This document shows positions 2,488-48,334 of a stretch of DNA of 55,207 nucleotides, piece by piece. A program made the position numbers and the translations under genes. The stretch is from Clostridia bacterium (lineage in GTDB: Bacteria; Bacillota; Clostridia; Oscillospirales; QAMX01): the NCBI GenBank assembly GCA_017414715.1, contig JAFQKV010000061.1, positions 1-55,207 on the forward strand. The letters run 5' to 3'. Position 1 is the first letter of the stretch; every line of letters begins with the position of its first letter. The notes below the pieces were generated by a model, which saw only the letters and a program-made list of their open reading frames with translations, was not told where the DNA came from and did no database searches.

Positions 2488-2518
2488 ACAAAAAGACAAC
2501 ACAAACAACGAAATTCGA

Positions 2519-2685
2519 CTTTGTCCTTTTGCCTGAGAGTTTGGCGTGTTGAAACGCTTGCACCTTCGGCCCCCAAGTGAATGGGTGTCTCCAAAGCTCT
2601 GTCCGTGTTCAGTCCTCATCCCCTAAGGGACACCTGAGAGCATGACTCCTTCGGCTGCGGTATGCCGCAATTTCCTGAGACACAT
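2519..2685 (-). promoter_or_regulatory. glycine riboswitch: one canonical aptamer preceded by a second, more divergent aptamer-like element
   Basis: Minus strand, 3' aptamer (2596-2519): CTTTGGAGA...GGCCGAAGGTGCAA...CTCTCAGGCAAAAGGACAAAG. This matches the conserved GGAGA / CCGAAGG-GCAA / CUCUCAGGCAAAAGGAC cores with a CTTTG/CAAAG P1. The 5' element (about 2685-2608) reads CTCAGGAAA...CAGCCGAAGGAGTCA...CTCTCAGGTG...TGAGGACTG. AGCS transporters are a classic downstream gene for this riboswitch class. Confidence 0.8.
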
Positions 2686-3305: not shown

Positions 3306-4208
3306 TTATTCTTCGAAGCAGCCGTAGGCCTCAAGGGTCACACGACCGATCTCATAGAGAAGGTTCTCTTCTCTGATTCGAAGTTCCAGAGGGAATTTGC
3401 GAAGCTTCTCTTCCCCATTAAAGGCACGGCGGTTCTTTTCACTGCCCACAAAGGAGGAAAGTGCCTCAAAGGTAAAATAACCTGTATAACCGATCTGCTG
3501 CAGCCCGTGCATAAGGCTATCCATATTCAGCGTTCCGCACATCGGCACAAGATGAGTATCATGATCCCCCATATTATCCTGAATATGCAGCGCACGAACA
3601 TGACTTCCAAGGATCGCAAGCTCCTCATGCTGAGGCATGTCCTGCAGATTTCCGTGGCCAGCATCCCACACGGCATGGAAGTTCGGATGGCCGATGTACT
3701 CAATGAGTCCGCGAAGATCGCTGGCATTGTCTATCCAGTACATGCCCGGAACGCACATCTTGTTGAAATTCTCGACGAGCACGTTGACGCCGCACTCGGC
3801 AGCGGCGGTAAGCAGCGGTGCGTAGAACTCCGCGTTGCGCGCATAAGTCTCGGCTATGCTGATACCGGGCAGGTAGCCGGAATGGATCACGAGATTCGGG
3901 ATCCCAAGCTCACCGCAGGCATGCACGCAGCGCATGGTATCAGCAAGAAAGCTGCCGTCGGGATCGTCCAGAGGCTTGCCCATGGGCGCATGCGCCTGCA
4001 CAAGACCCATATCAAGTTCCTTTGCCCGGGCGCAAAGGGCCGCGCAGTAGGACCTCCAGTCCTCACTGTAAATACCGATCCGACGGAAATGATCTTTCCC
4101 GAAGTTGATGTCCGCGTACCGGAAACCGGCTTCGCGGATATATCCGATGGCTTCAATGGCATCGGCGGCATACGCGCCGAAATCGCCTGTTGTTGTCGCA
4201 AGTTTCAT
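3306..4208 (-). CDS. sugar phosphate isomerase/epimerase (xylose-isomerase-like TIM barrel)
   Basis: 300-aa ORF with RBS GGAGGAGAAGCC before the ATG. Pattern is typical of the AP-endonuclease-2 / xylose-isomerase-like barrel (LVIHSG, VLVENF, WDAGHGN, LHIQDN). Confidence 0.85.
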   Translation of the reverse strand: MKLATTTGDFGAYAADAIEAIGYIREAGFRYADINFGKDHFRRIGIYSEDWRSYCAALCARAKELDMGLVQAHAPMGKPLDDPDGSFLADTMRCVHACGELGIPNLVIHSGYLPGISIAETYARNAEFYAPLLTAAAECGVNVLVENFNKMCVPGMYWIDNASDLRGLIEYIGHPNFHAVWDAGHGNLQDMPQHEELAILGSHVRALHIQDNMGDHDTHLVPMCGTLNMDSLMHGLQQIGYTGYFTFEALSSFVGSEKNRRAFNGEEKLRKFPLELRIREENLLYEIGRVTLEAYGCFEE

Positions 4209-4310: not shown

Positions 4311-4892
4311 TCAGTTTGCCGCCGGGATGCGCACAAAAAACTCTACGTGTCCGTCACGGCAATTCACGCCGATATGTCCTTTATGCGACTCTGCAATTGC
4401 CTTGGCAATGGCAAGTCCCAGACCGTAATGACCGTCCTCGCCCGTTCTGGCAGCGTCCACCCGATAAAACCGTTCAAATATCTGTTCCCGATGCTCAATT
4501 GGGATTTCGCCCCCTTTGTTGATGACCGAAAGCCTGACGTGGCCATGTTCTCTGCCAAGCATCAGGCGTATATCGCCGTCTTCCGTGCTGTGCCGGATCG
4601 CGTTATCAAGCAGAATGGAAACAAGCTGCTTGAGCTGTGTACTGTTTCCGTCAACAAATATCCCGTCACAAATATCAGCGTGCAGCGTCAAGCCTTTTTC
4701 ATAAACAACGCTTTCAAAGGGAAGCATCTCACCGGAGGCTATCCTGCTGAAATTGACACACTCGGTCTGCGGTACAATGTTTTCCGTTCTTGCAAGCTCC
4801 AGAAGCTGTCCCACGAGCAGCCCCATCCGCTCATTCTCATACTGAATGTTTGCAAGCCAGCGGTTTTCTCCAATCTCCCGCGAAAGCAGCAC
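4311..4892 (-). pseudogene. sensor histidine kinase remnant: C-terminal half of the DHp helix plus the HATPase_c domain, with no TM/sensor region and no H-box
   Basis: The ORF opens directly after an in-frame TAA, and its only start is a GTG at the ORF edge. The product begins in DHp helix 2 (ENERMGLLVGQLLELAR). It carries N-box (LLDNAIRHS), G1 (NKGGEIP) and G2 (GLGLAIAKAI) motifs, but the phospho-accepting His region is absent. Confidence 0.7.
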
Positions 4893-5980: not shown

Positions 5981-6715
5981 TCAGTCAAAAAGTGTTGATT
6001 TACGTTCTTTGACGGAGGCCAGCCACTTTTCCAGACGGTCACGATCCGCATTGATAACCAGCTCTTCGGGTAAACCTACCGTCTCGATCATACGGATACA
6101 GTTTGCGGATGCTCCGACGCTGCGGGCATAGTGGGAATCCGACCCGATCATCACCGGAACACCGTACTTTCCGCAGGCCTCGCAGATCTCATAGCACTTT
6201 TTATCGTGTGCGGGTTTTCCCAGGCTGGACTCGTTGAATTCCACCGTCTTCCCGCCGTCACGGAAGGCGCGGATGACCGTATCCGTTTCAAAATCGAAGC
6301 GGTCAGGGTCGCGGCCACAATGGCCGATAATATCCACCGCGGGATCCTCTGCGATTCCGCACCAGGTGCTGGTCACCGTCAGACGGTCGGCAGCCCAGAG
6401 GCTGTTCCTGTGAAGACTTGCAATGACATAATCAAGATTTTTCATATACCTGCGCTGCATGAAGATCTTTCCGCGCCAATCGCTGATATCGGACTCAACA
6501 CCGCGAAGCACGCGCACGCCGTAGCTTTCCGTCAGCCAATTGTTCATTTTTTCAAAGTAAGCCATGGGGACACCGTCAGGACATGCCTGTGTATGTTCGG
6601 AGATGCCGACCGCCCAGAGACCGCGCTCCTTTGCCCGCAGGATGAGTTCCTGACGGGTGCAGTGGCCGTGGGGGCAGGCAGAAGTGTGCGTATGCAGATC
6701 CGCTACCGTTTTCAT
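5981..6715 (-). CDS. PHP-domain metal-dependent phosphoesterase
   Basis: 244-aa ORF. N-terminal DLHTHT..HG motif, later GISEHT and IGSDSH, all typical of the PHP family. The ATG overlaps the hprK stop (ATGA at 6712-6715). Confidence 0.8.
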   Translation of the reverse strand: MKTVADLHTHTSACPHGHCTRQELILRAKERGLWAVGISEHTQACPDGVPMAYFEKMNNWLTESYGVRVLRGVESDISDWRGKIFMQRRYMKNLDYVIASLHRNSLWAADRLTVTSTWCGIAEDPAVDIIGHCGRDPDRFDFETDTVIRAFRDGGKTVEFNESSLGKPAHDKKCYEICEACGKYGVPVMIGSDSHYARSVGASANCIRMIETVGLPEELVINADRDRLEKWLASVKERKSTLFD

Positions 6716-35533: not shown

Positions 35534-36322
35534 TCAAATACCGAGAAGCTTGCGGGCATTTCCGGACAGGATCATCTCTCTTTGATTCACAGTCAGATCC
35601 AGCGCATCCAGAAGGCGCAGTTCCTGCCCCGGCGCATGCCAGGGAGTATCCGTTCCGAAAAGCAGGCGATCAGCACCGTGCGCCTCGACGATCCGACGGG
35701 CAAGACTTGGCGGTATGACACCCTGGCCAAAGGAAATATCAAACCATACGTCCTTGCCGCACAGATGTGTAAGCACCGCCTCGCCCATGAACATACCGCC
35801 CCAGTGCGCGGCGACCACAGGGCCTTGCATCCGGGGAAGCGCACGTGAAAGGCGTTCCGGTGTGCAGCGGTAAGGTCCGGGAAAACCAAGATCACCGCCG
35901 GCGTGAAAAAGAGTGATGAGCCCGAGCTCACCGATCTTTTGATAAATGGGCATCATGCGCGGATCATCCACAAAAAAATCCTGATACTCCGGATGGAGCT
36001 TGACACCGCGCAGCCCAAGCTCCGCGATCCGATCCAGCTCCTGCAGTACGTCAGGGGCATCCGGGTGCACAGAACCAAAGGCGATCAGATCCGCACTGTT
36101 GATGGATGCAGCAAAATCGTTAACGGCGTGCATCTGTCTGGGATTGGTGGCAATATTTGCAACGACGGAGATATCCACTCCGCCTTCATTCATGGAGGCG
36201 CGCAGGCCTTCAACCGTTCCGTCGGTGCAGGGCGGCAGTCCACCGGAGGCATCGGACAGGGATCCCACCGCCCGGGCGGCAAGCTTATCCGGGAAAGCAT
36301 GGGTATGAAAATCAATGACCAT
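35534..36322 (-). CDS. amidohydrolase-family (TIM-barrel metal-dependent hydrolase) protein
   Basis: 262 aa with the N-terminus MVIDFHTHAFP. The start is 9 nt after the aroQ stop, and the RBS (GTGAGGG) lies inside the aroQ 3' end. Confidence 0.8.
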   Translation of the reverse strand: MVIDFHTHAFPDKLAARAVGSLSDASGGLPPCTDGTVEGLRASMNEGGVDISVVANIATNPRQMHAVNDFAASINSADLIAFGSVHPDAPDVLQELDRIAELGLRGVKLHPEYQDFFVDDPRMMPIYQKIGELGLITLFHAGGDLGFPGPYRCTPERLSRALPRMQGPVVAAHWGGMFMGEAVLTHLCGKDVWFDISFGQGVIPPSLARRIVEAHGADRLLFGTDTPWHAPGQELRLLDALDLTVNQREMILSGNARKLLGI

Positions 36323-36331
36323 TCCGCGCCC

Positions 36332-36772
36332 TCACTTTCCGGCCAATCTCGCGGCCATGAATTCAATGGCATCACGATAGCTGTCAAAGCCCTTGCCCTT
36401 AAAGGTGGCAACACAGGCCTCTCCTGCATAGGAGATGTGCCGATAAGACTCCCGGGCATTGATATCCGAGAGATGTACCTCCGCCGCGGGAATCTCCACC
36501 GCCCGCAGGGCATCAGCAATGGCAATGCTCGTGTGCGTATAGGCTGCGGGGTTAATGATAATGGCATCCACGCCAGTCTCCAGAGCGCCCTGGATCATAT
36601 CCACCAGAACACCCTCGTGATTGGTCTGAAAGACCTCACATTCGGCTCCTGCAGATGCACAGCACTCCTTGACAAAGGCCACAAGTGCCGCATAGTCGCG
36701 CTTGCCGTAGATCTCCGGCTCACGGCGGCCCAGCAGATTAAGATTCGGTCCGTTCAAAATCAGGAATTTCAT
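36332..36772 (-). CDS. aroQ: type II 3-dehydroquinate dehydratase
   Basis: Start at the ATG at 36772 (MKFLILNGPNLNLLGRREPEIYG), overlapping the stop of the upstream gene. Confidence 0.93.
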   Translation of the reverse strand: MKFLILNGPNLNLLGRREPEIYGKRDYAALVAFVKECCASAGAECEVFQTNHEGVLVDMIQGALETGVDAIIINPAAYTHTSIAIADALRAVEIPAAEVHLSDINARESYRHISYAGEACVATFKGKGFDSYRDAIEFMAARLAGK

Positions 36773-37989
36773 AATTTCAGTGCCTCCAGAACAAGTTTTG
36801 CCGTTTCTTCCGCAGTTTTTGCGGCAGATACGGTGATATCGCTCCATTTTCGGTACATTGGCATGCGCTCCGCGTACAGGACCTTCACAGACCTGCTTTG
36901 GGAGATGGGTCTGCCATCAACGGGAAGCTCCTCCACAGGGCGGTCAAGCCACAAAATGATCCCATTCTGGTGATAAAGAGGGTAGTTTTCCTCTCTCGTT
37001 ACAACCCCGCCGCCGCAGGCGATGACCGTACCGCTGCGCTTTCCCAGCTCCGCGGCACACTCCGTCTCCAAACGACGGAATGCATCCTCGCCATCCGTCC
37101 GGATGATCTCCGGCACAGAACGGCCGGTGCGGGCAGAAAGCTCTGCGTCCGCATCACAAAAAGGACGGCCAAGCCTTTCCGCAATGATCTGTCCGACGGT
37201 GGATTTGCCGCAGCCGGGCATGCCAATGAGAACGATATTCTCCGTGCGCCGGGCAATCTTCCCAACGATGGCATCTGTGGCCGACTCCGGGATGCTCTTC
37301 CCCGTAAATATCTCCGATGCCCGTCGACCCTGATCGACCAGCATGGTGAGTCCGTTGATGCAGGGTATCCCCACAGCTTCGCAGTCCAGGAGAAGCTTTG
37401 TACGGGCAGGATTGTAGATAATATCCGCAACGCCGCAAAGCCTCGGAAACCCGGAAATATCAAGCGGGCTCACGCCGCAGTTCGGATACATACCCACAGG
37501 AGTGGTATTGATGATGTATTCCGCATCGGCATGCAGCCGGAGATTTCCGTAGTTATTCTCCCCCTTCCGGGAAATGACCACGGGATATGCCCCGAGATCT
37601 TTCAGCACGGCGCATGCCGTGCGGGAGGAACCTCCGCTGCCGAGAACGAGCACTTTTTTACCCGTCATGCAAAATCCCGCACGGCGGAACATGTACAGCA
37701 TACCGTCGGCATCGGTATTATCTCCAAACAGGGTGCCGTCAGTCCGACGAACCACTGTATTGACGGAGCCGATACGTCTTGCCCGTTCAGACAGCTCATC
37801 CATCATGGGAAGCACTGTTTCCTTATAGGGAATGGTGACGTTGAAGGCATCCAATGGTCCGCGGCGGACAAAATTCTCCACTGCCTCCGGTTCCAGCTCG
37901 TAAAGCTTGTATGCATACGCATCCAGCTCTGCGTGGATCTCCGGGGAGAAGGAGTGCGCGAGCTTTCGCCCGATAAGACCGCAGCGCAT
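36769..37989 (-). CDS. bifunctional shikimate dehydrogenase / shikimate kinase (AroE-AroK fusion)
   Basis: 406 aa. Residues 1 to about 245 are AroE-like (GLIG..L.HSFSP.IH, NVTIPYK, GDNTD, VLGSGGSS). Residues about 250-406 are AroK-like (IVLIGMPGCGKSTVG, FCDAD, IACGGG). Confidence 0.9.
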   Translation of the reverse strand: MRCGLIGRKLAHSFSPEIHAELDAYAYKLYELEPEAVENFVRRGPLDAFNVTIPYKETVLPMMDELSERARRIGSVNTVVRRTDGTLFGDNTDADGMLYMFRRAGFCMTGKKVLVLGSGGSSRTACAVLKDLGAYPVVISRKGENNYGNLRLHADAEYIINTTPVGMYPNCGVSPLDISGFPRLCGVADIIYNPARTKLLLDCEAVGIPCINGLTMLVDQGRRASEIFTGKSIPESATDAIVGKIARRTENIVLIGMPGCGKSTVGQIIAERLGRPFCDADAELSARTGRSVPEIIRTDGEDAFRRLETECAAELGKRSGTVIACGGGVVTREENYPLYHQNGIILWLDRPVEELPVDGRPISQSRSVKVLYAERMPMYRKWSDITVSAAKTAEETAKLVLEALKL

Positions 37990-39134
37990 CAGGGCACCAT
38001 CTCCGTATAGCTTCCGAGATAGCGGAACTCCCGGCAGGAACTCTCAAGCTCCCGCAACAGCTCCGCAAGCTCCGGTGCGGCCACAGGCTTATCCAGGTCC
38101 AGATAGAAAACAAACTCGAAATCCCGTTCAGGGATAGGACGGCTTTCCAGCTTCACCATATTCACGCCGAGCGCCGAGAAGCGCGCCAGTACACGGTAAA
38201 GCGCACCGGGTTTATTGGGAAGAGCAAGCATGATGCTCGTTCGGTCGGCACCGGGATATATCTCCAGTTCACGGGACACGCAGATAAATCGGGTATAGTT
38301 GTTCGCACGATCCTGCACATCGTCCTCCAGTACAGAAAGCCCGTAGAGATCGGCGCAGTTGACGCTGGAAAGCGCCGCAATATCATCCCTGCCCGATTCC
38401 GCCACGATCTTTGCGGCAACAGCCGTGTTGTCGCAGGGAATGACCTTGACACCGGCAAGTCCGTGCAGGAACCTGTCGCACTGGGCGATGGCCTGGCCGT
38501 GGGAATAGATCTCGCGGATGTTTGAGAGGTTAACTCCCTTTTTTGCAAGCAGGCAGTGATCCACTTTCAGGCGCAGGCTTCGCACGATATACAGTCCGGA
38601 TTCTGCCACGAGATCCGCGACCTCCTTGACGGAGCCTGCGGTGCTGTTTTCGATGGGCAGCACACCGTAGCGGCATAAACCGTCGCGCACGGCGGAGAAA
38701 ACGCTCTTGAAATTGCGGCAGTACATGACGGAAGGAAGCCGGAACAGCCGCTCACAGGCAAGCTGCGCATAAGCGCCCTCCACACCCATGCAGGCTACCT
38801 GCGCACGCTCCGGAAACAGTGCCGGGGTATTCTCCGTCGCATGCTTAATGCGCGCCTTCAGATCGGAGCCGGACTTCAGAAGCCGATCCTGCTTTGCGCG
38901 GGAAAGCTCAAAGATCAGCTCATACAGTGCACAGGCTGCGGTGCGGTATTCCTCCCCCGCGGTATCCGCAATGCTGCAAAGCTTATCCCGCTCCCGGGCA
39001 GGGTCATATACGGGAAGACCTTTCTCCGCCTTGACTGCCGCCACCTGAGAGACGATGTCCATCCGGCGGCAGAAAAGCTCCACCAGCTCCTTGTCGATCG
39101 CATCGATTTCCATACGAATATCTTTCAGTTCCAT
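37989..39134 (-). CDS. pheA: bifunctional chorismate mutase / prephenate dehydratase
   Basis: 381 aa. N-terminal CM_2 helix (IRMEIDAIDKELVELFCRRMDI), a central PDT domain and a C-terminal ACT domain (ESRP motif region). Confidence 0.92.
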   Translation of the reverse strand: MELKDIRMEIDAIDKELVELFCRRMDIVSQVAAVKAEKGLPVYDPARERDKLCSIADTAGEEYRTAACALYELIFELSRAKQDRLLKSGSDLKARIKHATENTPALFPERAQVACMGVEGAYAQLACERLFRLPSVMYCRNFKSVFSAVRDGLCRYGVLPIENSTAGSVKEVADLVAESGLYIVRSLRLKVDHCLLAKKGVNLSNIREIYSHGQAIAQCDRFLHGLAGVKVIPCDNTAVAAKIVAESGRDDIAALSSVNCADLYGLSVLEDDVQDRANNYTRFICVSRELEIYPGADRTSIMLALPNKPGALYRVLARFSALGVNMVKLESRPIPERDFEFVFYLDLDKPVAAPELAELLRELESSCREFRYLGSYTEMVP

Positions 39135-39154: not shown

Positions 39155-40237
39155 TTAAATATCTGCCTCACACCAGGCATCCAGGATCGCAACAGCCAAA
39201 GCGGCCTCCATACAGGGAACTGCGCGGGGAACGATGCAGGGATCGTGTCTCCCGACAACACGCAGCTTTGCCGCTTCCAGACGGGAAAGCGATACCGTAT
39301 CCTGCTCCATGGCGATGGAAGGGGTTGGTTTGATGGCGGCACGGAAGATGAGTGGCATGCCGCTGGTGATCCCGCCGAGGATACCGCCGTGATGGTTGCT
39401 TACCGTGCGAATGCCTTCCGGGGTGGAGATATAAGGATCGTTATGCTCGGCACCGGACATCCGGGCTGCATCAAAGCCGCTGCCGAATTCCAGACCCTTG
39501 ACCGCGGGAATTCCGAAGACAAGACCTGCGATGCGGTTCTCCATGCCGTCAAACATGGGATCGCCGAGACCTGCCGGAAGCCCCACCGCGGCGCACTCGA
39601 TAACGCCGCCAACGGAATTCCCCTCAGTCTTTGCCGCAAGGATACGCGCCTGCATCTCCTTACCCGCGCTGTCCGACAGAGTCGGGAAAGCCTTTTCCAC
39701 CAATGCGGAGAAGGTATCCGGTGCGATACTGACTGCATCAAACCGGTCATCCCGTACGCCGCCGATCTCGGCGATATGTGCACCGATCTCAACACCGCGG
39801 CGGGCAAGGATCTGCGCCGCAATACCGCCGGCGATGCAGAGAGGAGCCGTCAGCCGGCCGGAGAAATGCCCGCCTCCGGCCTTGTCCTGCCATCCGCCGA
39901 ATTTGACCTCCGCCGGATAGTCGGCATGTCCCGGACGCGGAAAATCCGCCATTGCCGCATAGTCGGCGGAGCGGGTGTTTGTATTGCGTATGATCGCGGT
40001 AAGGGGCGTTCCGCAGGTGACACCGTTATGCAATCCGCAGAGGATCTCCGGAACATCCGGCTCCTTACGGGAGGTTGCCAGGTTTCCGCCGGGGGCACGG
40101 CGGGCAAGAAAGGCCTGCAAAACCTCGGTATCCACGTGTTCTCCGACAGGAAGTCCCTCCACCGTAACTCCGATGGCCTGTGAGTGGGACTGCCCGAATA
40201 TTGTGATCTTCAGATGATTTCCAAAGGATGATGCCAT
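39155..40237 (-). CDS. aroC: chorismate synthase
   Basis: Start chosen at the ATG at 40237 (MASSFGNHLKITIFGQSHS...), after GGAAGGAGAA. It carries the chorismate synthase signatures (RPGHAD, GGGHFSGR). Confidence 0.95.
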   Translation of the reverse strand: MASSFGNHLKITIFGQSHSQAIGVTVEGLPVGEHVDTEVLQAFLARRAPGGNLATSRKEPDVPEILCGLHNGVTCGTPLTAIIRNTNTRSADYAAMADFPRPGHADYPAEVKFGGWQDKAGGGHFSGRLTAPLCIAGGIAAQILARRGVEIGAHIAEIGGVRDDRFDAVSIAPDTFSALVEKAFPTLSDSAGKEMQARILAAKTEGNSVGGVIECAAVGLPAGLGDPMFDGMENRIAGLVFGIPAVKGLEFGSGFDAARMSGAEHNDPYISTPEGIRTVSNHHGGILGGITSGMPLIFRAAIKPTPSIAMEQDTVSLSRLEAAKLRVVGRHDPCIVPRAVPCMEAALAVAILDAWCEADI

Positions 40238-40238
40238 A

Positions 40239-41486
40239 TTATTCTCCTTCCGACAGGCTGACCTGTCCGCCGAGACTTTCAAGATCCCGCCAGAAGCCGG
40301 GATAGGATTTGTTCACCGATTCTGCGCCGCGGATGATGCTCTTCCCTTCCGCGTGTACAGCTGCGATAGCAGCTGCCATGGCAATGCGGTGATCACCGTA
40401 TGCATCTGCAGCTCCACCGGGTATGGGCTTTCCGCCATGGATCAGCAGGCCGTCACCCTCCTCTCGGATATCGGCACCAAGGCTTCGCAGCGCCGCCGCG
40501 GTGGTAAAGAGCCGGTCGCTTTCCTTTGCCCGGAGACGGGCTGCGTTAATAATGCGGGTCTCACCCTGCGCAAATACGGCTGCCGCAGCAAGGGGCGGCA
40601 CAAGATCGGGGATCGGATCCGCATCGATAACCGTACCGTGCAAACGACCTTGCGCAGAAAAGGCCGCGCCCTCCCGGCAGATTTCCGCCCCCATGCGGCA
40701 AAGGACATCCAAAACGCGCCGGTCGCCCTGGGCGGTTTCTCCCAAAAGGCCGGTGACAGGCACCCCGGCACACAGCCAGAAGGCCGCACCGGACCAGTCG
40801 CCCTCGATGTGCATCTCCCCGGGAGATCTGTACGCCGCATCTGCAGGGATACGGAACCCGCTTTCCGTCCGTTCCGTCCGGATTCCGAAAGCAGCGAGGG
40901 CCCGCAGGGTCATTTCCACATAATCCGCAGAGGAAAGTGGGCCTTCAATAACAATTTCACTCTCTCCGTCAAGCAGCGGCAGCGCAAAAAGAAGACCGCT
41001 GACAAACTGTGAGGAAACATTACCCGGAAGAACATATCTTCCAGGCTGCAGTTTTCCCCGTACGCGCACCGGATTTGCTCCGGCGTCGGAAAGGGTCGCG
41101 CCATGGGATATCAGGGCATCCCGCAGGGCATCCATCGGGCGCTCCGGCAGCCGACCGGCACAGTGAAACGCTGTCTCACAGCCCAGCGCCGCCGCAACGG
41201 GAATAAGAAACCGCAGTGTAGATCCGCTCTCACCGCAGTCCGCCTTCGCTGCGTTTTCAAAACTTCCGCCAAAGATACGCACACCGTCCGCCATCCGTTC
41301 TGTACGGGCACCCAGAGCGTTGATGCAGCGGAGGGTAGCTTCCATATCCGCATTGGTGTCCGCACAGCGGATATACGTTTCTCCGGCAGAGAGAGCTGCA
41401 CAGATCATCGCACGATGCGCCGCCGATTTGGATGCCGGAGCACGTACACATCCCGACAAACGGGACGGAGTGATGCGCGCGATCAT
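40239..41486 (-). CDS. aroA: 3-phosphoshikimate 1-carboxyvinyltransferase (EPSP synthase)
   Basis: 415 aa with PASKSAAHRAMICAAL and ESGSTLRFL motifs, and C-terminal DHRIAMAAAIAA. Confidence 0.95.
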   Translation of the reverse strand: MIARITPSRLSGCVRAPASKSAAHRAMICAALSAGETYIRCADTNADMEATLRCINALGARTERMADGVRIFGGSFENAAKADCGESGSTLRFLIPVAAALGCETAFHCAGRLPERPMDALRDALISHGATLSDAGANPVRVRGKLQPGRYVLPGNVSSQFVSGLLFALPLLDGESEIVIEGPLSSADYVEMTLRALAAFGIRTERTESGFRIPADAAYRSPGEMHIEGDWSGAAFWLCAGVPVTGLLGETAQGDRRVLDVLCRMGAEICREGAAFSAQGRLHGTVIDADPIPDLVPPLAAAAVFAQGETRIINAARLRAKESDRLFTTAAALRSLGADIREEGDGLLIHGGKPIPGGAADAYGDHRIAMAAAIAAVHAEGKSIIRGAESVNKSYPGFWRDLESLGGQVSLSEGE

Positions 41487-42541
41487 ACCCTGCCTCCGAG
41501 ACCGAGGCGCGCATATTCCGTCACCTTCTCCACAGGAACGGGGTTAAGAATGCAATTTCCCGCCGCCTTCGGAACCACCAGTGTTACCGTGTTCCCGCGG
41601 CGCTTTTTATCACCTGCCGCCGCTGCGGCAATGTCCTCCGGTGCATAGTCACATCCGGTGGGAAGCCCAAAGGTCTCAAGCTTTCCGATAAGCAGGTCTG
41701 CATCGCGTATGCTGCAAATACCGAGCCCGGCGCAGGCACGGGCCATAACCGACATACCAATCGCCACAGCGCGACCGTGAGAAATTTTATAATCGGACAG
41801 TTTTTCGATCGCATGTCCGAGCGTGTGTCCGAAATTCAGCAGCTGTCGGTCACCATTGTCAAACTCATCCCGGCAGACGATGTCGCGCTTGATGGCAACG
41901 CAGCGGGCGATGATTTCCTCGCGGTCAAAATCCGGTCCCGAAAGCGCATCCAGAAGCTCTCTGTCACAGATCATTGCGTATTTGATGATCTCTGCACAGC
42001 CGTCAATAAATATCTCCTCCGGCAGTGTATCCAGAAGGTCCGGATCGCAGATTACAGCCCGGGGCTGACAGAAGGCACCCACAAGATTTTTCCCCGCCGA
42101 AAGATCAACGGCCGTCTTGCCGCCGACGGAGGAATCCACACAGGACAGTACCGTTGTCGGGATCTGCACAACTGCGATGCCGCGCAGATACGTCGCTGCC
42201 GCAAAGCCCGCAAGATCTCCCGTCACGCCGCCGCCGAGAGCAACGACAACAGAAGATCTGTCCACACCGTTTTCAGCGAAGAACTCCAGCATTTTCACAT
42301 ATTCAGCCGTATTTTTCGATGCCTCTCCCGCAGGAAACACATACCGAAGAACACGGAAGCCTGCGGCTTCAAGGCTTTCCGCCGCCGTATTTCCCCACAG
42401 GGCATCTACCGTGCTGTCGCTCACCAGCACGGCAAGAGGCGCATTGATCACGGCGCGGACAATCCGTCCGGCATCCCGCAGAAGGCCGCGTCCCACCAGC
42501 ACATCGTAGGCGGAGGAGGCCGAAACCGTAATGCATTTCAT
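41483..42541 (-). CDS. aroB: 3-dehydroquinate synthase
   Basis: 352 aa with GGGVTGDLAGFAAATYLRGI and NFGHTLGHAIE motifs. Its stop overlaps the aroA start by 4 nt. Confidence 0.95.
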   Translation of the reverse strand: MKCITVSASSAYDVLVGRGLLRDAGRIVRAVINAPLAVLVSDSTVDALWGNTAAESLEAAGFRVLRYVFPAGEASKNTAEYVKMLEFFAENGVDRSSVVVALGGGVTGDLAGFAAATYLRGIAVVQIPTTVLSCVDSSVGGKTAVDLSAGKNLVGAFCQPRAVICDPDLLDTLPEEIFIDGCAEIIKYAMICDRELLDALSGPDFDREEIIARCVAIKRDIVCRDEFDNGDRQLLNFGHTLGHAIEKLSDYKISHGRAVAIGMSVMARACAGLGICSIRDADLLIGKLETFGLPTGCDYAPEDIAAAAAGDKKRRGNTVTLVVPKAAGNCILNPVPVEKVTEYARLGLGGRV

Positions 42542-42565: not shown

Positions 42566-43569
42566 TCAATCGTGGATTATGCTGCGGATCTCACGCACCC
42601 TGCGGGCCACGTCCGCAAACTGCTCCGGTGTCAGAGACTGAGCACCGTCGCACAGAGCATTCTTTGGATCATTGTGCACCTCGATCATCAGACCGTCTGC
42701 CCCGGCAGCCGCCGCCGCAAGGGCCATGGGGCGCACAAGACGTGCAACGCCGGTGGCATGGCTCGGATCAACAACAACGGGCAAATGCGAGAGCTCATGC
42801 AATACGGGCACCGCAGAGAGATCCAGTGTATTGCGGGTAGCCGTCTCATAGGAACGGATGCCGCGCTCACAGAGAATAACATTCTCGTTTCCGCCAGACA
42901 TGACGTATTCCGCGCTCATCAGAAGTTCCTTGAGCGTTCCCGCAATGCCGCGTTTTAAAAGGATAGGCTTGCGGGTATGTCCAAGCTCCTTAAGAAGTTC
43001 AAAGTTCTGAATATTCCGTGCACCCACCTGAATGACATCAACGTCTTCAAACAGCGGCAGGTGATGGGCACTCATGATCTCGGTTACGATAGGCATACCA
43101 GTCTCTCGCTTTGCCTCCAGAAGCAGTTCAATGCCTTCCGCAGCAAGCCCTTGGAAATCATAGGGCGAGGTGCGGGGCTTGAAGGCACCGCCGCGCAGAA
43201 AGGCGGCACCGCTCTCCTTCACCGAGCGGGCTACCTCAAGGATCTGCTCACGGCTCTCCACGGAACAGGGGCCGGCAATCATGGCAAAGTTCCCGCCGCC
43301 GAGCTTGACACCGCCAACATCAACAACGGTGTCGTCGGGATGAAATTTACGGTTCGCACTTTTGAATGGCTCGGAAATGCGCTGAACGCTTTCAACAATA
43401 TCAAGCCCTCCAGAAGGCCGATATCCAACGCCGTGGTATCTCCGATCAGACCGACAATGGTCTGAAACTCACCCACCGCCACATGTACGCCAAGACCGCG
43501 TCCGCTCAGCCAGTCACACAGCGCGTCGATTTTTGCTTTTTCAACTCCGGGGCGAATAATTGCAATCAT
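42566..43569 (-). pseudogene. aroF: 3-deoxy-7-phosphoheptulonate (DAHP) synthase, type I-beta with an N-terminal ferredoxin-like/ACT regulatory domain; the reading frame is broken by a 1-nt deficit (real, or an assembly error)
   Basis: ORF 43569-43279 gives MIAIIRPGVEK...[20 protein letters not shown] and then nonsense. ORF 43282-42566 gives [13 protein letters not shown]...[18 protein letters not shown]. Adding one G to the GGG run (plus-strand CCC at 43406-43408) yields a continuous ...[54 protein letters not shown]..., colinear with Thermotoga-type DAHPS. Confidence 0.85.
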
Positions 43570-43599
43570 ATTTTTCTCTGCCTTTCCTGTTACTCTGTC

Positions 43600-43635
43600 A
43601 AAAAAATTCCGCACAGTGATCTCACTGTGCGGAAT
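43600..43635 (-). terminator. attenuator terminator in the aro operon leader
   Basis: Perfect 14-nt inverted repeat ATTCCGCACAGTGA / TCACTGTGCGGAAT followed by seven T, ending 30 nt before the aroF start codon. Confidence 0.85.
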
Positions 43636-43675
43636 GAAACAGCTGACTCTTTATTTCTCCGATAAAAAGCGGCCC

Positions 43676-43765
43676 TTACATTTCAGCATGCGAAATCACT
43701 CGTACTTCCGGCTTGGTAAAGTAAAAGTAAAAGAAGTATTCCGCTGCAAAAAAGTTACGGGACAT
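43676..43765 (-). CDS. candidate aromatic-rich leader peptide (29 aa: MSRNFFAAEYFFYFYFTKPEVRVISHAEM)
   Basis: ATG at 43765, 7 nt after GGAGA. The ORF has 6 Phe and 3 Tyr codons, 7 of them consecutive (43738-43718). It lies between a consensus promoter and the attenuator terminator. Confidence 0.55.
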   Translation of the reverse strand: MSRNFFAAEYFFYFYFTKPEVRVISHAEM

Positions 43766-43796
43766 CTGTCATTCTCCAACGATCAATTATGAGGGT

Positions 43797-43825
43797 ATTA
43801 TACTCCTTGATTCTGCCGCTGTCAA
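43797..43825 (-). promoter_or_regulatory. consensus sigma-A promoter of the aro operon leader
   Basis: Minus strand TTGACA (43825-43820), exactly 17-nt spacer, TATAAT (43802-43797). Confidence 0.7.
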
Positions 43826-43893
43826 GAGAAAGCTGCACGGTTTTTTCTTTTCGATGCTGTTCCCGCCATCGGCATTCCGTTTCCCTGCCGCTT

Positions 43894-44841
43894 TCACTCG
43901 GCTACGGTGTTGATGGGCGAACCCGCAAGATAGGCCCGCAAATTCTCCGCGGCAGCGGCCATCAGCCGCCCGCGTGCCTCACGGGTCGCCCAAGCGTTAT
44001 GGGGCGTTACAATGCAGTTTTTTGCATCAATGAGCAGGTTCTCCTTCGGCGGCTCACAGGACAGCACATCCACCGCCGCGCCGGCAATCATGCCGCGATC
44101 CAGCGAATCGCGCAGATCCTCCTCCACCACCAGCTGACCGCGGGAGGTGTTCACAAGATAAGCCGTCGGCTTCATAGCCGCCAGAAAGGCCGAATCCACC
44201 ATATTGACCGTATCCGGCTTTGCCGGGCAGTGGAGCGAAATGAAGTCTGACTCCCTGCAAAGGGTTTCACGGTCACAGAAGGTCACATCATGCTCATCCG
44301 TCGGATGAGGGGTGTTGCAGAGGATTCGCATACCAAATGCCCGGGCGAGCTCTGCGGTTCGGCGGCCGATACGGCCGTAGCCTACAAGACCGAGTGTCTT
44401 GCCACGAAGCTCGATCTGCGGGGTAATGCTGTAGGAATAATCCGGGCATGCAGACCACCCGCCGCCGCGCACACTCGCCGTGTGCGCTCCGACACCGCGG
44501 CAGAGCTCCAGGATGAGCGCAAAAGTATACTCCGCAACGCTGTCGGTACCGTAGGCGGGAATATTGGTCACGGTGATTCCATACCGGGCTGCTGCCGCAA
44601 CATCCACCACATTGTATCCCGTGGCCAGAACGCCGATATAGCGAAGCCCGGGAAGTTTTGCAAACTCAGCATCGCCAAGAGGCGTTTTGTTGGTCATGAG
44701 AATCTCCGCACCGGCTGCTCTGGAGAGTATTTCCTCCGGCGCGGTACGGTCATATACCGTAAGGTCGCCGAGAGCGGCCACCGGTTCCCAGGGATTGTCC
44801 CCGGGGTTGAGGGCATATCCGTCGAGCACAACGATCTTCAT
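43894..44841 (-). CDS. D-isomer-specific 2-hydroxyacid dehydrogenase (glycerate dehydrogenase-like)
   Basis: GLVGYGRIGRRTAEL Rossmann motif and the catalytic R/E/H region (NTSRG, PH). The ATG at 44841 (MKIVVLDG) has better spacing from GGAGGAAA than the ATG at 44847. Confidence 0.88.
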   Translation of the reverse strand: MKIVVLDGYALNPGDNPWEPVAALGDLTVYDRTAPEEILSRAAGAEILMTNKTPLGDAEFAKLPGLRYIGVLATGYNVVDVAAAARYGITVTNIPAYGTDSVAEYTFALILELCRGVGAHTASVRGGGWSACPDYSYSITPQIELRGKTLGLVGYGRIGRRTAELARAFGMRILCNTPHPTDEHDVTFCDRETLCRESDFISLHCPAKPDTVNMVDSAFLAAMKPTAYLVNTSRGQLVVEEDLRDSLDRGMIAGAAVDVLSCEPPKENLLIDAKNCIVTPHNAWATREARGRLMAAAAENLRAYLAGSPINTVAE

Positions 44842-46287: not shown

Positions 46288-46385
46288 TGATGATATCTCC
46301 TTTGGCAATCATACATTATTTATAAATTATATATAATAACCGGGGTTTTGTCAATGCTTCCACCTCCGGATTTATGGGAATGATA

Positions 46386-46413
46386 TTGACAATCATCGAA
46401 AAAAATGTATAAT
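46386..46413 (+). promoter_or_regulatory. near-consensus sigma-A promoter of the CNNM/CorC-family gene leader
   Basis: TTGACA (46386-46391), 16-nt spacer, TATAAT (46408-46413). Confidence 0.6.
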
Positions 46414-48082: not shown

Positions 48083-48156
48083 GCGGGTGTAGTTCAATGG
48101 TAGAATCCCAGCCTTCCAAGCTGGTCGTGTGGGTTCGATTCCCATCACCCGCTCCA
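48083..48156 (+). tRNA. tRNA-Gly (anticodon UCC)
   Basis: Cloverleaf read by hand: acceptor GCGGGTG/CACCCGC, anticodon stem CCAGC/GCTGG with loop CTTCCAA, T-loop TTCGATT, encoded CCA. Confidence 0.95.
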
Positions 48157-48176
48157 AACGCACACTGCGTTGACAT

Positions 48177-48253
<77 letters not shown>

Positions 48254-48256
48254 TAT

Positions 48257-48334
48257 GGTGGATGTAGCTCAGCTGGTTAGAGTATCAGGTTGTGGCCCTG
48301 AGGGTCGTCGGTTCGAACCCGATCATCCACCCCA
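48257..48334 (+). tRNA. tRNA-His (anticodon GUG)
   Basis: An extra 5' G(-1) is opposite C73. Acceptor GTGGATG/CATCCAC, anticodon loop TTGTGGC, T-loop TTCGAAC, encoded CCA. Confidence 0.95.

What the first reader, a model, noticed from the sequence alone, without database searches (positions are those of the whole stretch)
43600..43825. Phe/Tyr-rich leader peptide plus terminator: candidate ribosome-mediated attenuator for a complete shikimate/Phe operon
All elements are read on the minus strand.
- A consensus promoter: TTGACA, 17 nt, TATAAT (43825-43797).
- GGAGA lies 7 nt before an ATG (43765).
- A 29-codon ORF follows: MSRNFFAAEYFFYFYFTKPEVRVISHAEM-stop (43765-43676). Nine codons are Phe or Tyr, and seven are consecutive (YFFYFYF, 43738-43718).
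- Next comes a perfect 14-nt inverted repeat, ATTCCGCACAGTGA/TCACTGTGCGGAAT, plus T7 (43635-43600). It ends 30 nt before the DAHP synthase start.

UACUUC inside the aromatic run is complementary to GAAGUA 25 nt downstream. CGGAA and AGUGA each recur in the leader and in the terminator arms. Mutually exclusive 1:2, 2:3 and 3:4 pairings are therefore plausible.

The genes behind it encode all seven common-pathway steps plus chorismate mutase/prephenate dehydratase. This is the architecture of the enterobacterial pheA, pheST and trp leader-peptide attenuators. In Firmicutes, aromatic amino-acid genes are classically controlled by T-box leaders or TRAP, and I see no T-box motif here. I cannot tell from sequence alone whether this leader class is already catalogued.
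Basis: partly seen in the sequence, partly recalled or inferred. Interest (0 to 1): 0.75.

Follow-up and report, generated by a model that had tools for sequence, protein, structure and literature searches.

The report
Phe/Tyr leader-peptide attenuator, aro operon
A 29-codon mini-gene packed with phenylalanine and tyrosine codons, followed by a transcription stop signal, sits in front of the aromatic amino-acid synthesis operon and most likely switches it on when these amino acids run short; the element is real and conserved in many gut Clostridia, but this kind of switch was already predicted in Clostridia in 2019.

Summary
The ORF is the single outlier among 1,021 ORFs in the window (7 aromatic residues in 8; next best 5).

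Comparative data support the attenuator reading:
- 58 of 78 species-level relatives carry the same unit upstream of DAHP synthase: near-consensus promoter, SD plus ATG, F/Y-run mini-ORF, conserved RNA motif and intrinsic terminator.
- The aromatic codons pair with the downstream motif (helix 1:2). Covariation includes Phe UUU to Tyr UAU swaps that are compensated in the partner strand.
- The same motif pairs with the distal 5' arm and loop of the terminator (2:3), and it co-varies with its own terminator.
- The positions of the stop codon and the aromatic codons fit the classic trp/pheA model.

A covariance model finds one copy per locus. In metagenomes it also precedes a PF04392 ABC-transporter operon, an aroE-aroK fusion and a pheA gene.

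No Rfam, Pfam or NCBIfam family matches. However, Stav et al. 2019 (PMC6429828, supplement) already described F/Y-rich "aromatic amino acid attenuators" uORF-12 and uORF-13 upstream of aroF, other shikimate genes and transporters in Clostridia. C. glutamicum aroR is an experimentally studied analogue.

Verdict: real, well supported, not new in kind.

The parts
43797..43825 (-). Sigma-70-type promoter: TTGACA (43825-43820), 17 nt, TATAAT (43802-43797). The -10 hexamer ends 31 nt before the leader ATG.
   Evidence: 12/12 match. A promoter scoring at least 10/12 lies at the same distance (mode 30-31 nt) in 46 of 59 related leaders, against 2 of 59 on the reverse-complement control.
43773..43777 (-). 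Shine-Dalgarno GGAGA, 7 nt before the leader ATG.
   Evidence: An SD-like motif lies 4-16 nt upstream of the in-frame ATG in 59 of 59 leaders in the F/Y frame, against 2 and 1 of 59 in the other two frames.
43676..43765 (-). Leader ORF of 29 codons plus stop: MSRNFFAAEYFFYFYFTKPEVRVISHAEM.
   Evidence: It was called as a 29-aa gene in an independent 99%-identical metagenome contig, L201, with a K18E difference. It is unnamed in public protein collections.
43718..43738 (-). Regulatory codon run Tyr-Phe-Phe-Tyr-Phe-Tyr-Phe, the proposed ribosome stall site.
   Evidence: Across 59 leaders the run codons are TTT 174, TAC 132, TAT 86, TTC 26 and TGG 3.
43718..43751 (-). Segment 1: UUUUGCAGCGGAAU plus the aromatic run. 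This is the 5' strand of helix P1.
   Evidence: P1 is -18.3 kcal/mol in the window.
43681..43709 (-). Segment 2, the conserved RNA motif: GGAAGUACGAGUGAUUUCGCAUGCUGAAA in the window, family consensus AAAAGUAAUAGUGAUUUGUGCUGCAAA. It is the 3' strand of P1 and also the 5' strand of the antiterminator.
   Evidence: Searches show the conservation. The motif lies in all three frames relative to the ORF, and the stop codon precedes it or lies within it in 29 of 48 leaders, so the conservation is at RNA level. Pairing with the terminator arm and loop is shown.
43669..43760 (-). Match to covariance model R1 (P1 region: aromatic run plus motif). It is the only match in the window.
   Evidence: 55.4 bits, E = 2.4e-8.
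43646..43670 (-). Weak AU-rich spacer hairpin between segment 2 and the terminator. It is predicted in this sequence only, and conservation was not examined.
43600..43635 (-). Intrinsic terminator. Segment 3 is ATTCCGCACAGTGA (43635-43622), segment 4 is TCACTGTGCGGAAT (43619-43606), and the T run extends to 43600. In the antiterminated state 43635-43612 pairs with segment 2 (43705-43681; duplex -20.8 kcal/mol).
42566..43569 (-). DAHP synthase (FXD regulatory domain plus type I-beta catalytic domain), the first regulated gene. In this assembly the frame is broken by GGG instead of GGGG at about 43409-43411.
41483..42541 (-). aroB, 3-dehydroquinate synthase.
40239..41486 (-). aroA, EPSP synthase.
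39155..40237 (-). aroC, chorismate synthase. The start is placed by analogy with the gene call in L201.
37989..39134 (-). Chorismate mutase / prephenate dehydratase / ACT (pheA type).
36769..37989 (-). aroE-aroK fusion (shikimate dehydrogenase plus shikimate kinase).
36332..36847 (-). aroQ, type II 3-dehydroquinate dehydratase. The true start is probably about 25 codons inside the listed ORF.
35534..36322 (-). Amidohydrolase_2-family gene, the last gene before the operon terminator at 35464-35437.

Best explanation
This is a classic ribosome-mediated transcription attenuator of the trp/pheA type. It senses the supply of charged tRNA-Phe and tRNA-Tyr and controls read-through into the aro operon (DAHP synthase, aroB, aroA, aroC, CM-PDT, aroE-aroK, aroQ).

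Transcription starts at the consensus promoter, and a ribosome loads on the 29-codon leader.

State 1, Phe and Tyr plentiful:
- The ribosome runs through the YFFYFYF codons to the stop codon.
- There it covers 12 of the 19 nt of segment 2 that would form the antiterminator.
- After release, segment 2 is recaptured by segment 1 in helix P1.
- Either way, segments 3 and 4 form the terminator and RNA polymerase stops 30 nt before the DAHP synthase ATG.

State 2, Phe or Tyr scarce:
- The ribosome stalls on the aromatic codons, which are themselves the 5' strand of P1.
- Segment 2 (43705-43681) stays free and pairs with the distal 5' arm, the loop and the first bases of the 3' arm of the terminator (43635-43612).
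- The terminator cannot form and the operon is transcribed.

State 3, no translation: P1 and the terminator both form, giving termination.

Shown by sequence and comparison: all parts, their conservation, the 1:2 and 2:3 complementarity with covariation, and the geometry. Inferred: stalling, coupling of the ribosome to RNA polymerase, the actual change in read-through, and whether both amino acids or only Phe matter.
For: Parts are present and non-random.

Conservation:
- 58 of 78 species-level relatives (Oscillospiraceae, Acutalibacteraceae, Lachnospiraceae, Anaerovoracaceae and other Clostridia MAGs) have a 14-40-codon ORF with 5-8 F/Y/W in 8 residues upstream of DAHP synthase. The reverse strand gives mostly 2-4.
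- All 59 leaders have a terminator starting 46-98 nt after the run.
- 46 of 59 have a near-consensus promoter about 30 nt upstream of the ATG.

Coding evidence: an in-frame ATG plus SD occurs in 59 of 59 in the F/Y frame, against 2 and 1 of 59 in the other frames. About 89% of run codons are UUU, UUC, UAU or UAC.

Helix 1:2:
- Mean duplex -20.5 kcal/mol, mean z -3.4.
- On a structure-blind MAFFT alignment 75.5% of cells are paired, against 39-55% in slid registers. The covariation score is 0.256 against 0.10-0.15, and 0 of 500 shuffles reach it.
- One pair reads UA 19 / AU 15 / UG 10. This is a Phe UUU to Tyr UAU codon swap compensated in the motif (the same result on the model-based alignment).

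Helix 2:3:
- The motif core GAUUUGUGCUGC (or GAUUUUUGCUGC) pairs with GCACAGAAUC (or GCAGUGAAAA) of the terminator arm plus loop.
- Mean energy for a leader's own pair is -12.1 kcal/mol, against -9.9 +/- 0.35 for cross-locus pairs; 0 of 5000 permutations reach it.
- Motif type and arm type are associated, 20:5 against 1:8.
- With a stalled ribosome and segment 4 not yet made, real arms stabilise the nascent RNA by -7.0 against -4.8 kcal/mol for shuffled arms (Wilcoxon p = 2e-7).

Window itself: the segment 2 to segment 3 duplex is -20.8 kcal/mol. With a stalled ribosome the terminated and antiterminated conformers are within 3 kcal/mol (-44.4 against -41.4).

Geometry: a ribosome at the stop codon covers at least 5 nt of the antiterminator strand in 36 of 49 leaders. 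A ribosome stalled on an aromatic codon leaves that strand free at 97% of the codons.

Regulon logic: the same model hits one site per locus. In metagenomes it precedes DAHP synthase (25), a PF04392/BPD_transp_2/ABC_tran transporter operon (23), aroE-aroK (1) and CM-PDT (1).

Precedents with the same logic: aroR of C. glutamicum and uORF-12/13 of Clostridia.
Against: - There are no expression, Term-seq or ribosome-profiling data, so everything is computational.
- For the window alone, the 2:3 complementarity is not significant against shuffled arms (z +0.2, -0.7). The support for 2:3 is at family level.
- In full-length thermodynamic folds the terminator always wins, so the switch must be kinetic. 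This is usual for attenuators but is assumed here.
- In 9 of 49 leaders a ribosome at the stop codon would not cover the antiterminator strand. Six have stops far downstream and three have stops very early.
- About 20 of 78 relatives lack the element, and they have no recognisable substitute.
- From my own knowledge (Johnson et al., Nature 2020): transcription and translation are functionally uncoupled in Bacillus subtilis. If that held in Clostridia, the ribosome could not keep up with RNA polymerase unless a pause, for example at P1, synchronises them.
- In C. glutamicum aroR only Phe limitation, not Tyr, changed transcription, so dual sensing is not guaranteed.
Confidence: 0.85

Rival explanations
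1. The conserved RNA (helix P1, the motif and the terminator) is a riboswitch-like or factor-binding leader. It would sense a metabolite, an uncharged tRNA or an RNA-binding protein, and the small ORF would be incidental to a U/A/C-rich helix strand.
For: The motif after the run is conserved at nucleotide level, more strongly than simple pairing would need, and in all three reading frames. The aromatic run is also a helix strand. Narunsky et al. 2024 treated a two-hairpin Firmicutes leader upstream of ABC transporters (the trpB motif) as a riboswitch candidate while not excluding an attenuator. The window has a weak, sub-threshold match to that model (19.5 bits against a gathering score of 59).
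Against: An ATG plus SD lies in the F/Y frame in 59 of 59 leaders, against 1-2 of 59 in the other frames. Substitutions in the run are confined to UUY/UAY codons although other compensated pairs would keep the helix. There is no T-box or other Rfam match. The identity of the codons matches the pathway products. The stop-codon geometry fits ribosome masking.
Confidence: 0.07
2. The ORF encodes a functional small hydrophobic peptide (an sORF product with its own role). The hairpin is just the terminator of that small gene, or of the upstream 2-hydroxyacid dehydrogenase gene.
For: Gene callers have called these ORFs in several assemblies, and one variant is seen on at least 1000 contigs. The peptides are hydrophobic.
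Against: Outside the aromatic run the peptide is not conserved. Its length ranges from 14 to 40 residues, and the C-terminal part is read in different frames or lies after the stop codon. The unit always sits in the sense orientation directly upstream of aromatic-pathway or transporter genes, with its own promoter. The terminator co-varies with the leader motif, which an independent terminator would not need. No Pfam or NCBIfam family matches.
Confidence: 0.04
3. The leader works mainly at another level, such as mRNA stability or translation of DAHP synthase, and not by premature transcription termination.
For: Some attenuators in other bacteria sequester the ribosome-binding site instead of terminating transcription (stated in PMC9413887).
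Against: The hairpin is a canonical intrinsic terminator (13 bp, G+C-rich, T7). It ends 30 nt before the ATG and does not include the DAHP synthase SD. All 59 relatives have a hairpin followed by a U run, ending 20-138 nt before the start codon.
Confidence: 0.04

Closest known systems
uORF-13 (and uORF-12) 'aromatic amino acid attenuators' of Firmicutes, found from the Clostridium novyi NT genome (Stav et al. 2019, BMC Microbiol 19:66, PMC6429828, Fig. 6b, Table S1b and supplementary text)
   Same: uORF-13 is described as follows:
- A short ORF with an F-Y-F consensus lying 'within the loop of P1', followed by a terminator stem.
- About half of its 336 examples are upstream of aroF (DAHP synthase). 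The others are upstream of tyrA, amino-acid transporters, shikimate kinase, shikimate dehydrogenase and EPSP synthase.
- It occurs in Clostridiales and other Firmicutes, and 57% of examples are metagenomic.
- The authors interpret it as a trp-like transcription attenuator.

The window element has the same anatomy, with the run enclosed by the outer P1 helix. It has the same gene contexts (25 DAHP synthase, 23 transporter, aroE-aroK, pheA) and the same taxa.
   Different: - Sequence-level identity with uORF-13 or uORF-12 could not be tested. The alignments are not in the held supplements and neither motif is in Rfam 15.
- tyrA was not seen downstream in my sample.
- The transporter found here is a PF04392 ABC system, whereas the supplement names a sodium-dependent tryptophan transporter for uORF-12.
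- The published description gives no 1:2/2:3/3:4 model, and no experimental test is reported in the passages read.
aroR leader peptide upstream of aroF in Corynebacterium glutamicum (Neshat et al. 2014, as summarised in PMC11802643)
   Same: A leader peptide with Phe-Tyr-Phe upstream of the DAHP synthase operon. Ribosome stalling raises transcription. It is supported by transcriptome experiments.
   Different: It is from Actinobacteria. Stav et al. state that its peptide and RNA structure are distinct from the Firmicutes motifs. It has only three aromatic codons, against 7-10 here. It responded to Phe but not Tyr limitation.
Enterobacterial pheL-pheA, pheM-pheST and trpL-trp attenuators
   Same: The same logic: a leader ORF with a run of regulatory codons inside segment 1, mutually exclusive 1:2, 2:3 and 3:4 helices, an intrinsic terminator, and a stop codon placed so that the terminating ribosome masks segment 2 (established knowledge; PMC3082878).
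   Different: There is no sequence or Rfam relationship. The codons are mixed Tyr and Phe instead of a single amino acid. It controls the whole common pathway plus pheA, not one terminal branch. The host is a Gram-positive anaerobe.
uORFC-13-1 motif upstream of aroF in Acholeplasma (Brewer et al. 2021, PMC8632094)
   Same: A promoter, ribosome-binding site, start codon, Phe-coding U run and adjacent terminator upstream of aroF, proposed to act as an attenuator.
   Different: It is reported only from Acholeplasma and unassigned environmental sequences (24 examples), with 'at least one' Phe codon and not a long F/Y run. A relationship could not be tested because no sequences are held.
His and Leu leader-peptide attenuators of Firmicutes (B. 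cereus group, C. difficile, Erysipelotrichales, Streptococcus, Lactococcus)
   Same: They show that ribosome-mediated attenuation exists in Firmicutes alongside T-boxes.
   Different: Different amino acids and operons, and unrelated sequences.
T-box leaders and TRAP, the classical Firmicutes controls of aromatic amino-acid genes
   Same: Same regulatory target and the same read-out, namely terminator against antiterminator.
   Different: No T-box match was found in the window or in 47 related loci. The sensor here is a translating ribosome, not a tRNA-binding RNA or a protein.

Membership tests
Ribosome-mediated (leader-peptide) transcription attenuator, trp/pheA type | A short ORF with its own ribosome-binding site and start codon in the 5' leader of the regulated operon | tested here: met
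   GGAGA, 7 nt, ATG and 29 codons. ATG plus SD is present in 59 of 59 related leaders in the F/Y frame, against 2 and 1 of 59 in the other frames.
Ribosome-mediated (leader-peptide) transcription attenuator, trp/pheA type | A cluster of codons for the amino acid(s) made by the regulated pathway | tested here: met
   9 of 29 codons are Phe or Tyr, 7 of them consecutive. The ORF is a unique outlier in the window. The run is conserved in 58 of 78 relatives while the rest of the peptide varies.
Ribosome-mediated (leader-peptide) transcription attenuator, trp/pheA type | An intrinsic terminator between the leader ORF and the first structural gene | tested here: met
   13-bp G+C-rich hairpin plus T7, -22.3 kcal/mol, ending 30 nt before the ATG. 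Present in all 59 leaders.
Ribosome-mediated (leader-peptide) transcription attenuator, trp/pheA type | Helix 1:2 that includes or abuts the regulatory codons | tested here: met
   Mean -20.5 kcal/mol, z -3.4. 75.5% of cells paired against 39-55% in slid registers, and 0 of 500 shuffles reach the covariation score. UUU/UAU swaps are compensated.
Ribosome-mediated (leader-peptide) transcription attenuator, trp/pheA type | Helix 2:3 (antiterminator), mutually exclusive with 1:2 and 3:4 | tested here: met
   Family level: consistent architecture; own against cross-locus energy -12.1 against -9.9, 0 of 5000 permutations; nascent-RNA test p = 2e-7. Window: duplex -20.8 kcal/mol, but not individually significant against shuffles.
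Ribosome-mediated (leader-peptide) transcription attenuator, trp/pheA type | Geometry: a terminating ribosome masks segment 2, and a ribosome stalled on the regulatory codons leaves it free | tested here: met
   At least 5 nt masked in 36 of 49 leaders, and 12 of 19 nt in the window. Segment 2 is free at 97% of the aromatic codon positions.
Ribosome-mediated (leader-peptide) transcription attenuator, trp/pheA type | Read-through rises on starvation for the cognate amino acid and depends on leader translation | not testable with these tools
   This needs Term-seq, RNA-seq or reporter assays.
[quoted passage not shown] 2019) | A short ORF with an F-Y-F consensus located in the loop of hairpin P1, followed by a terminator stem | tested here: met
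   The window peptide contains YFFYFYF. The outer helix (UUUGCAGC / GCUGCAAA type; 43747-43738 with 43697-43686 in the window) encloses the run, and the terminator follows.
[quoted passage not shown] 2019) | Gene context: about half upstream of aroF, the others upstream of tyrA, amino-acid transporters and shikimate-pathway genes | tested here: met
   Of 60 metagenome matches to model R1, 25 precede DAHP synthase, 23 an ABC transporter operon, 1 aroE-aroK and 1 CM-PDT. tyrA was not seen.
[quoted passage not shown] 2019) | Distribution in Firmicutes (Clostridiales and others) and metagenomes | tested here: met
   Record titles of L001-L080 are mostly Clostridia, Oscillospiraceae, Lachnospiraceae and Acutalibacteraceae. 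The element is abundant in gut and rumen metagenome contigs.
[quoted passage not shown] 2019) | A significant score against the motif's own alignment or covariance model, or a hit of my model on the type locus NC_008593.1:2308872-2309418 | not testable with these tools
   The alignments are not in the held supplements. The motif is not in Rfam 15 (no hit).
T-box leader (RF00230) | Specifier loop plus conserved T-box antiterminator sequence, detected by the Rfam model | tested here: not met
   No match at the gathering score in the window or in 47 loci. None with E up to 10 in 43400-44000.
Enterobacterial Phe leader and other Rfam leader families | A match to the Rfam covariance model | tested here: not met
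   The permissive scan (E up to 10) of 43400-44000 lists no leader family. The element works like them but is not a homologue.
trpB motif (RF04312, Narunsky et al. 2024) | A score at or above the gathering threshold of 59 bits | tested here: not met
   19.5 bits, E = 4, and mostly the terminator part. No hit in the transporter-linked loci either.

The most novel reading that the evidence does not exclude
The element could be a family distinct from the published uORF-12/uORF-13 motifs: an uncatalogued, very widespread attenuator of gut and rumen Oscillospirales and Lachnospirales that defines an aromatic regulon (aro operon, pheA, aroE-aroK and a PF04392 ABC uptake system). Its amino-acid specificity would be tuned by codon mix. 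Transporter-linked leaders are Tyr-biased (Tyr fraction 0.66) and biosynthesis-linked leaders are balanced (0.47). The regulatory codons also double as a helix strand, so that Phe/Tyr codon swaps require compensating changes in the antiterminator motif. Its abundance would also imply that ribosome-RNA polymerase coordination works in Clostridia, unlike the uncoupled transcription-translation reported for Bacillus subtilis.
Probability: 0.3. Interest if true: 0.45.

Novelty: already known. Interest (0 to 1): 0.25.

Why it matters
- It explains how many abundant gut and rumen Clostridia probably set the level of the whole shikimate/Phe pathway, and of a likely aromatic amino-acid importer: through the charging of tRNA-Phe and tRNA-Tyr, not through a T-box or TRAP.
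- This kind of element has no entry in Rfam 15, Pfam or NCBIfam, and the small ORFs are unnamed or uncalled. A curated model would improve the annotation of thousands of genomes and metagenomes.
- It is a clean natural example where coding and RNA-pairing constraints act on the same bases.
- If validated, it would bear on whether transcription-translation coordination exists in Clostridia.

None of this changes the fact that the kind of element has been predicted before.

Tried and rejected
- RNAalifold on the plain MAFFT alignment predicted no pairs, because runs of variable length misregister the 5' strand. I replaced it with an explicit column-pair search and the counting tool with its controls.
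- My first crude 2:3 test (first 45 nt after the run against the 5' arm) gave only mean z -1.3 and nothing for the window. Pairing became clear only when the terminator loop was included.
- One script exceeded its time limit and was rerun in parallel.
- T-box, TRAP-like and riboswitch readings were rejected on the Rfam results and the coding evidence.
- The weak trpB-motif match was rejected as sub-threshold and terminator-driven.
- Leader peptides scanned against NCBIfam and Pfam gave nothing. One call failed on a syntax error.
- No sequences were held for the Acholeplasma uORFC-13-1 motif in the supplements of Brewer et al. 2021, so that comparison could not be made.
- Literature searches for a dedicated paper on the Clostridial element found none. 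The description turned up only in the supplement of Stav et al. 2019.
- I first placed the DAHP synthase frame break at 43282 and then at 43403/43404. Alignment with L201 puts it in the G run at about 43409-43411.
Full report
**Observation.** On the minus strand the window carries, in order:
- a perfect sigma-70 promoter: TTGACA 43825-43820, 17 nt, TATAAT 43802-43797;
- GGAGA (43777-43773), 7 nt before an ATG (43765);
- a 29-codon ORF, MSRNFFAAEYFFYFYFTKPEVRVISHAEM, with its stop at 43678-43676;
- a 13-14 bp G+C-rich hairpin (43635-43606, -22.3 kcal/mol) followed by a T run to 43600;
- 30 nt further on, the ATG of DAHP synthase (43569).

The ORF is the only one of 1,021 ORFs of at least 10 aa in the window with 7 aromatic residues in 8; the next best has 5. 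The leader folds better than shuffles, z = -3.2.

The genes behind it are DAHP synthase, aroB, aroA, aroC, chorismate mutase-prephenate dehydratase-ACT, an aroE-aroK fusion, aroQ and an amidohydrolase. They end at a terminator at 35464-35437.

**Known RNA and peptide families.** Rfam 15 gives nothing here at the gathering score. With E up to 10 it gives only a sub-threshold match to the 'trpB motif', 19.5 bits against 59, mostly to the terminator. No T-box or other family is found in 47 related loci. The peptides match nothing in NCBIfam or Pfam.

**Relatives.** A scan of one genome per species with the DAHP synthase catalytic domain returned 80 loci. They are mostly Clostridia MAGs and isolates (Oscillospiraceae, Acutalibacteraceae, Lachnospiraceae, Anaerovoracaceae). 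The best identity is 85%, to a Pseudoflavonifractor.
- In 58 of the 78 loci with upstream sequence there is a 14-40-codon ORF with 5-8 F/Y/W in 8 residues, about 100-200 nt before the gene. The opposite strand scores mostly 2-4.
- All 59 leaders (58 plus the window) have a terminator hairpin starting 46-98 nt after the run.
- 46 of 59 have a promoter scoring at least 10/12, with the -10 hexamer about 30 nt before the leader ATG, against 2 of 59 in the control.
- The F/Y frame has an in-frame ATG with an SD-like motif in 59 of 59. The other two frames have one in 2 and 1 of 59.
- The run codons are TTT 174, TAC 132, TAT 86, TTC 26 and TGG 3.
- Outside the run the peptide is not conserved.

**A conserved RNA motif.** After the run lies a nucleotide motif, consensus AAAAGUAAUAGUGAUUUGUGCUGCAAA. 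It is read in all three frames relative to the ORF (20/19/9). In 29 of 48 leaders the stop codon lies before it or within it. It is therefore conserved as RNA, not as peptide.

**Helix 1:2.** The sequence just before the run (UUUGCAGC) pairs with the end of the motif (GCUGCAAA). The last aromatic codons (UUACUUUUACUUU) pair with its beginning (AAAGUAAAAGUGA).
- Duplex energies average -20.5 kcal/mol, z = -3.4 against shuffles.
- On a structure-blind MAFFT alignment of 52 leaders, 75.5% of cells pair, against 39-55% when the partner is slid by 1-3 columns.
- The covariation score is 0.256 against 0.10-0.15, and 0 of 500 shuffles reach it. The model-based alignment gives the same picture.
- One pair reads UA 19 / AU 15 / UG 10. 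This is a Phe UUU to Tyr UAU codon change compensated by A to U in the motif. The same bases are therefore under both coding and pairing constraint.

**Helix 2:3.** The core of the motif pairs with the distal part of the terminator's 5' arm plus the terminator loop. GAUUUGUGCUGC pairs with GCACAGAAUC-type arms, and GAUUUUUGCUGC with GCAGUGAAAA-type arms. This explains why these terminator loops are conserved in sequence.
- A motif pairs better with its own terminator than with those of other loci: -12.1 against -9.9 +/- 0.35 kcal/mol, 0 of 5000 permutations.
- Motif type and arm type are associated, 20:5 against 1:8.
- With a ribosome placed on the run and the 3' arm not yet transcribed, real 5' arms stabilise the nascent RNA more than shuffled arms: -7.0 against -4.8 kcal/mol, Wilcoxon p = 2e-7. 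On average 72% of their bases pair upstream.
- In the window, 43705-43681 pairs with 43635-43612 at -20.8 kcal/mol. With a stalled ribosome, the terminated and antiterminated full-length conformers differ by only 3 kcal/mol.
- Taken alone, the window's 2:3 complementarity is not significant against shuffles. The case for 2:3 rests on the family.

**Geometry.** A ribosome with the stop codon in its A site covers at least 5 nt of the antiterminator strand in 36 of 49 leaders, and 12 of 19 nt in the window. A ribosome stalled on an aromatic codon leaves that strand free at 97% of codon positions.

**Mechanism.** Together these results give the classic three-state model.
- With plentiful charged tRNA-Phe and tRNA-Tyr, the ribosome reaches the stop codon and masks segment 2. 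The terminator forms.
- With a shortage, the ribosome stalls on segment 1. Segment 2 pairs with segment 3, and RNA polymerase reads into the operon.
- Without translation, P1 and the terminator both form.

The anatomy, conservation, covariation and geometry are shown. Stalling, ribosome-polymerase coordination and the actual response are inferred. A caveat from my own knowledge: transcription and translation are uncoupled in Bacillus subtilis (Johnson et al. 2020). If Clostridia behave similarly, a pause (for example at P1) would be needed.

**Spread and regulon.** A covariance model of the P1 region (R1) finds one copy per locus in 54 loci plus the window (55.4 bits, E = 2.4e-8). That includes four loci not in the seed. 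There is no second copy in the 55-kb window.

Of the 80 listed loci, 61 match R1. I examined the downstream gene for 60 of them:

| Downstream context | Loci |
|---|---|
| DAHP synthase | 25 |
| Lipoprotein of family PF04392, followed by a BPD_transp_2 permease and an ABC ATPase | 23 |
| aroE-aroK fusion | 1 |
| Chorismate mutase-prephenate dehydratase | 1 |
| Too short to tell | 6 |
| Unclear | 4 |

Transporter-linked leaders are richer in Tyr than biosynthesis-linked ones: Tyr/(Tyr+Phe) is 0.66 against 0.47, Mann-Whitney p = 0.0004. The sequences are not phylogenetically independent.

**Comparison with what is known.** The logic is that of the enterobacterial trp, pheA and pheST attenuators, but there is no sequence or Rfam relationship.
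- Leader-peptide attenuators in Firmicutes are documented for His and Leu.
- An F-Y-F leader (aroR) upstream of aroF is experimentally supported in Corynebacterium glutamicum. It responded to Phe but not Tyr.
- A Phe uORF plus terminator upstream of aroF was reported in Acholeplasma.
- Most relevant is the supplement of Stav et al. 2019 (PMC6429828), which describes 'aromatic amino acid attenuators' uORF-12 and uORF-13, found from Clostridium novyi.
  - uORF-13 has 336 examples in Clostridiales, other Firmicutes and metagenomes.
  - About half are upstream of aroF. The others are upstream of tyrA, amino-acid transporters and shikimate genes.
  - It has a short ORF whose F-Y-F consensus lies in the loop of P1, followed by a terminator. 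The authors interpret it as a trp-like attenuator.

Every descriptive feature of uORF-13 that I could test is met by the window element. Sequence-level identity could not be tested, because no alignment is held and the motif is absent from Rfam. I estimate about two chances in three that it is the same family. Otherwise it is a sister family of the same kind.

**Verdict.** It is not new in kind.
- an explicit 1:2/2:3/3:4 model with covariation;
- the observation that Phe/Tyr codon swaps are compensated in the antiterminator motif;
- the ABC-transporter branch with Tyr-biased leaders;
- the fact that curated databases still lack the element.

**Side observation.** In all 78 relatives the FXD and catalytic domains of DAHP synthase are in one frame. 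In the window they are not. A 99%-identical metagenome contig (L201) has an intact 334-aa gene. The window has GGG where L201 has GGGG, at about 43409-43411. This is a homopolymer-length sequencing error or a strain-specific slip.

Noticed in passing
window 43405-43415 (minus strand), within the DAHP synthase gene 42566-43569: The first gene of the operon is frame-shifted in this assembly. The sequence reads ...LLEGL then goes out of frame to a TGA at 43281-43279. All 78 relatives, and a 99%-identical metagenome contig (L201, intact 334-aa gene), read ...[11 protein letters not shown]... The window has GGG where L201 has GGGG. This is either a homopolymer sequencing error or a genuine strain-specific disruption that would separate the FXD regulatory domain from the catalytic domain.
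   Followed up: yes
metagenome loci L086, L088, L090, L094, L097, L098, L102, L105, L107, L109, L112, L113, L128, L129, L139-L141, L149, L150, L152, L153, L155, L156: The same attenuator (matches to model R1) precedes an ABC operon made of a PF04392 substrate-binding lipoprotein, a BPD_transp_2 permease and an ABC ATPase. Its leaders are Tyr-biased (Tyr fraction 0.66 against 0.47 for DAHP synthase-linked leaders, p = 0.0004). This suggests an aromatic or tyrosine uptake system in the same regulon. One such leader peptide is seen on at least 1000 contigs.
   Followed up: partly
L081 (element 6045-6137, +) and L106 (element 4380-4473, +): The element also precedes a stand-alone aroE-aroK fusion gene and a chorismate mutase-prephenate dehydratase gene. 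These two leaders contain a Trp codon next to the F/Y run (YWFYFYFY and FWFYFYY).
   Followed up: partly
L002, L017, L018, L029, L033, L042, L044, L050, L058-L061, L063, L074-L076 (upstream of DAHP synthase): About 20 of 78 related species lack the F/Y leader upstream of DAHP synthase and show no Rfam-known element there, T-box included. How their aro genes are controlled is open.
   Followed up: partly
window 43597-43682 (minus strand): There is a sub-threshold match (19.5 bits against 59) to the Rfam 'trpB motif' RF04312. That motif is a two-hairpin Firmicutes leader mostly associated with an uncharacterised amino-acid ABC transporter, published as a riboswitch candidate with a classic attenuator not excluded. 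Whether it is a Trp-codon cousin of the present element was not examined.
   Followed up: no
L080 about 3540-3660: In this relative the terminator-like hairpin (GGCCGCACAGAATCACACTGTGCGGCTTTACTCTT) occurs twice in tandem between the leader and DAHP synthase.
   Followed up: no
window 46326-46354 (-) and 46386-46413 (+): Two further perfect 12/12 consensus promoters face away from each other about 30 nt apart, upstream of ORFs on both strands.
   Followed up: no
window 2511-2604 (-) and 48083-48331 (+): A glycine riboswitch aptamer (60.3 bits) and a cluster of three tRNA genes.
   Followed up: no
window 35534-36322 (-): An Amidohydrolase_2-family gene with no NCBIfam match is the last gene of the aro operon, before the operon terminator. 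Its role in aromatic metabolism is unclear.
   Followed up: no
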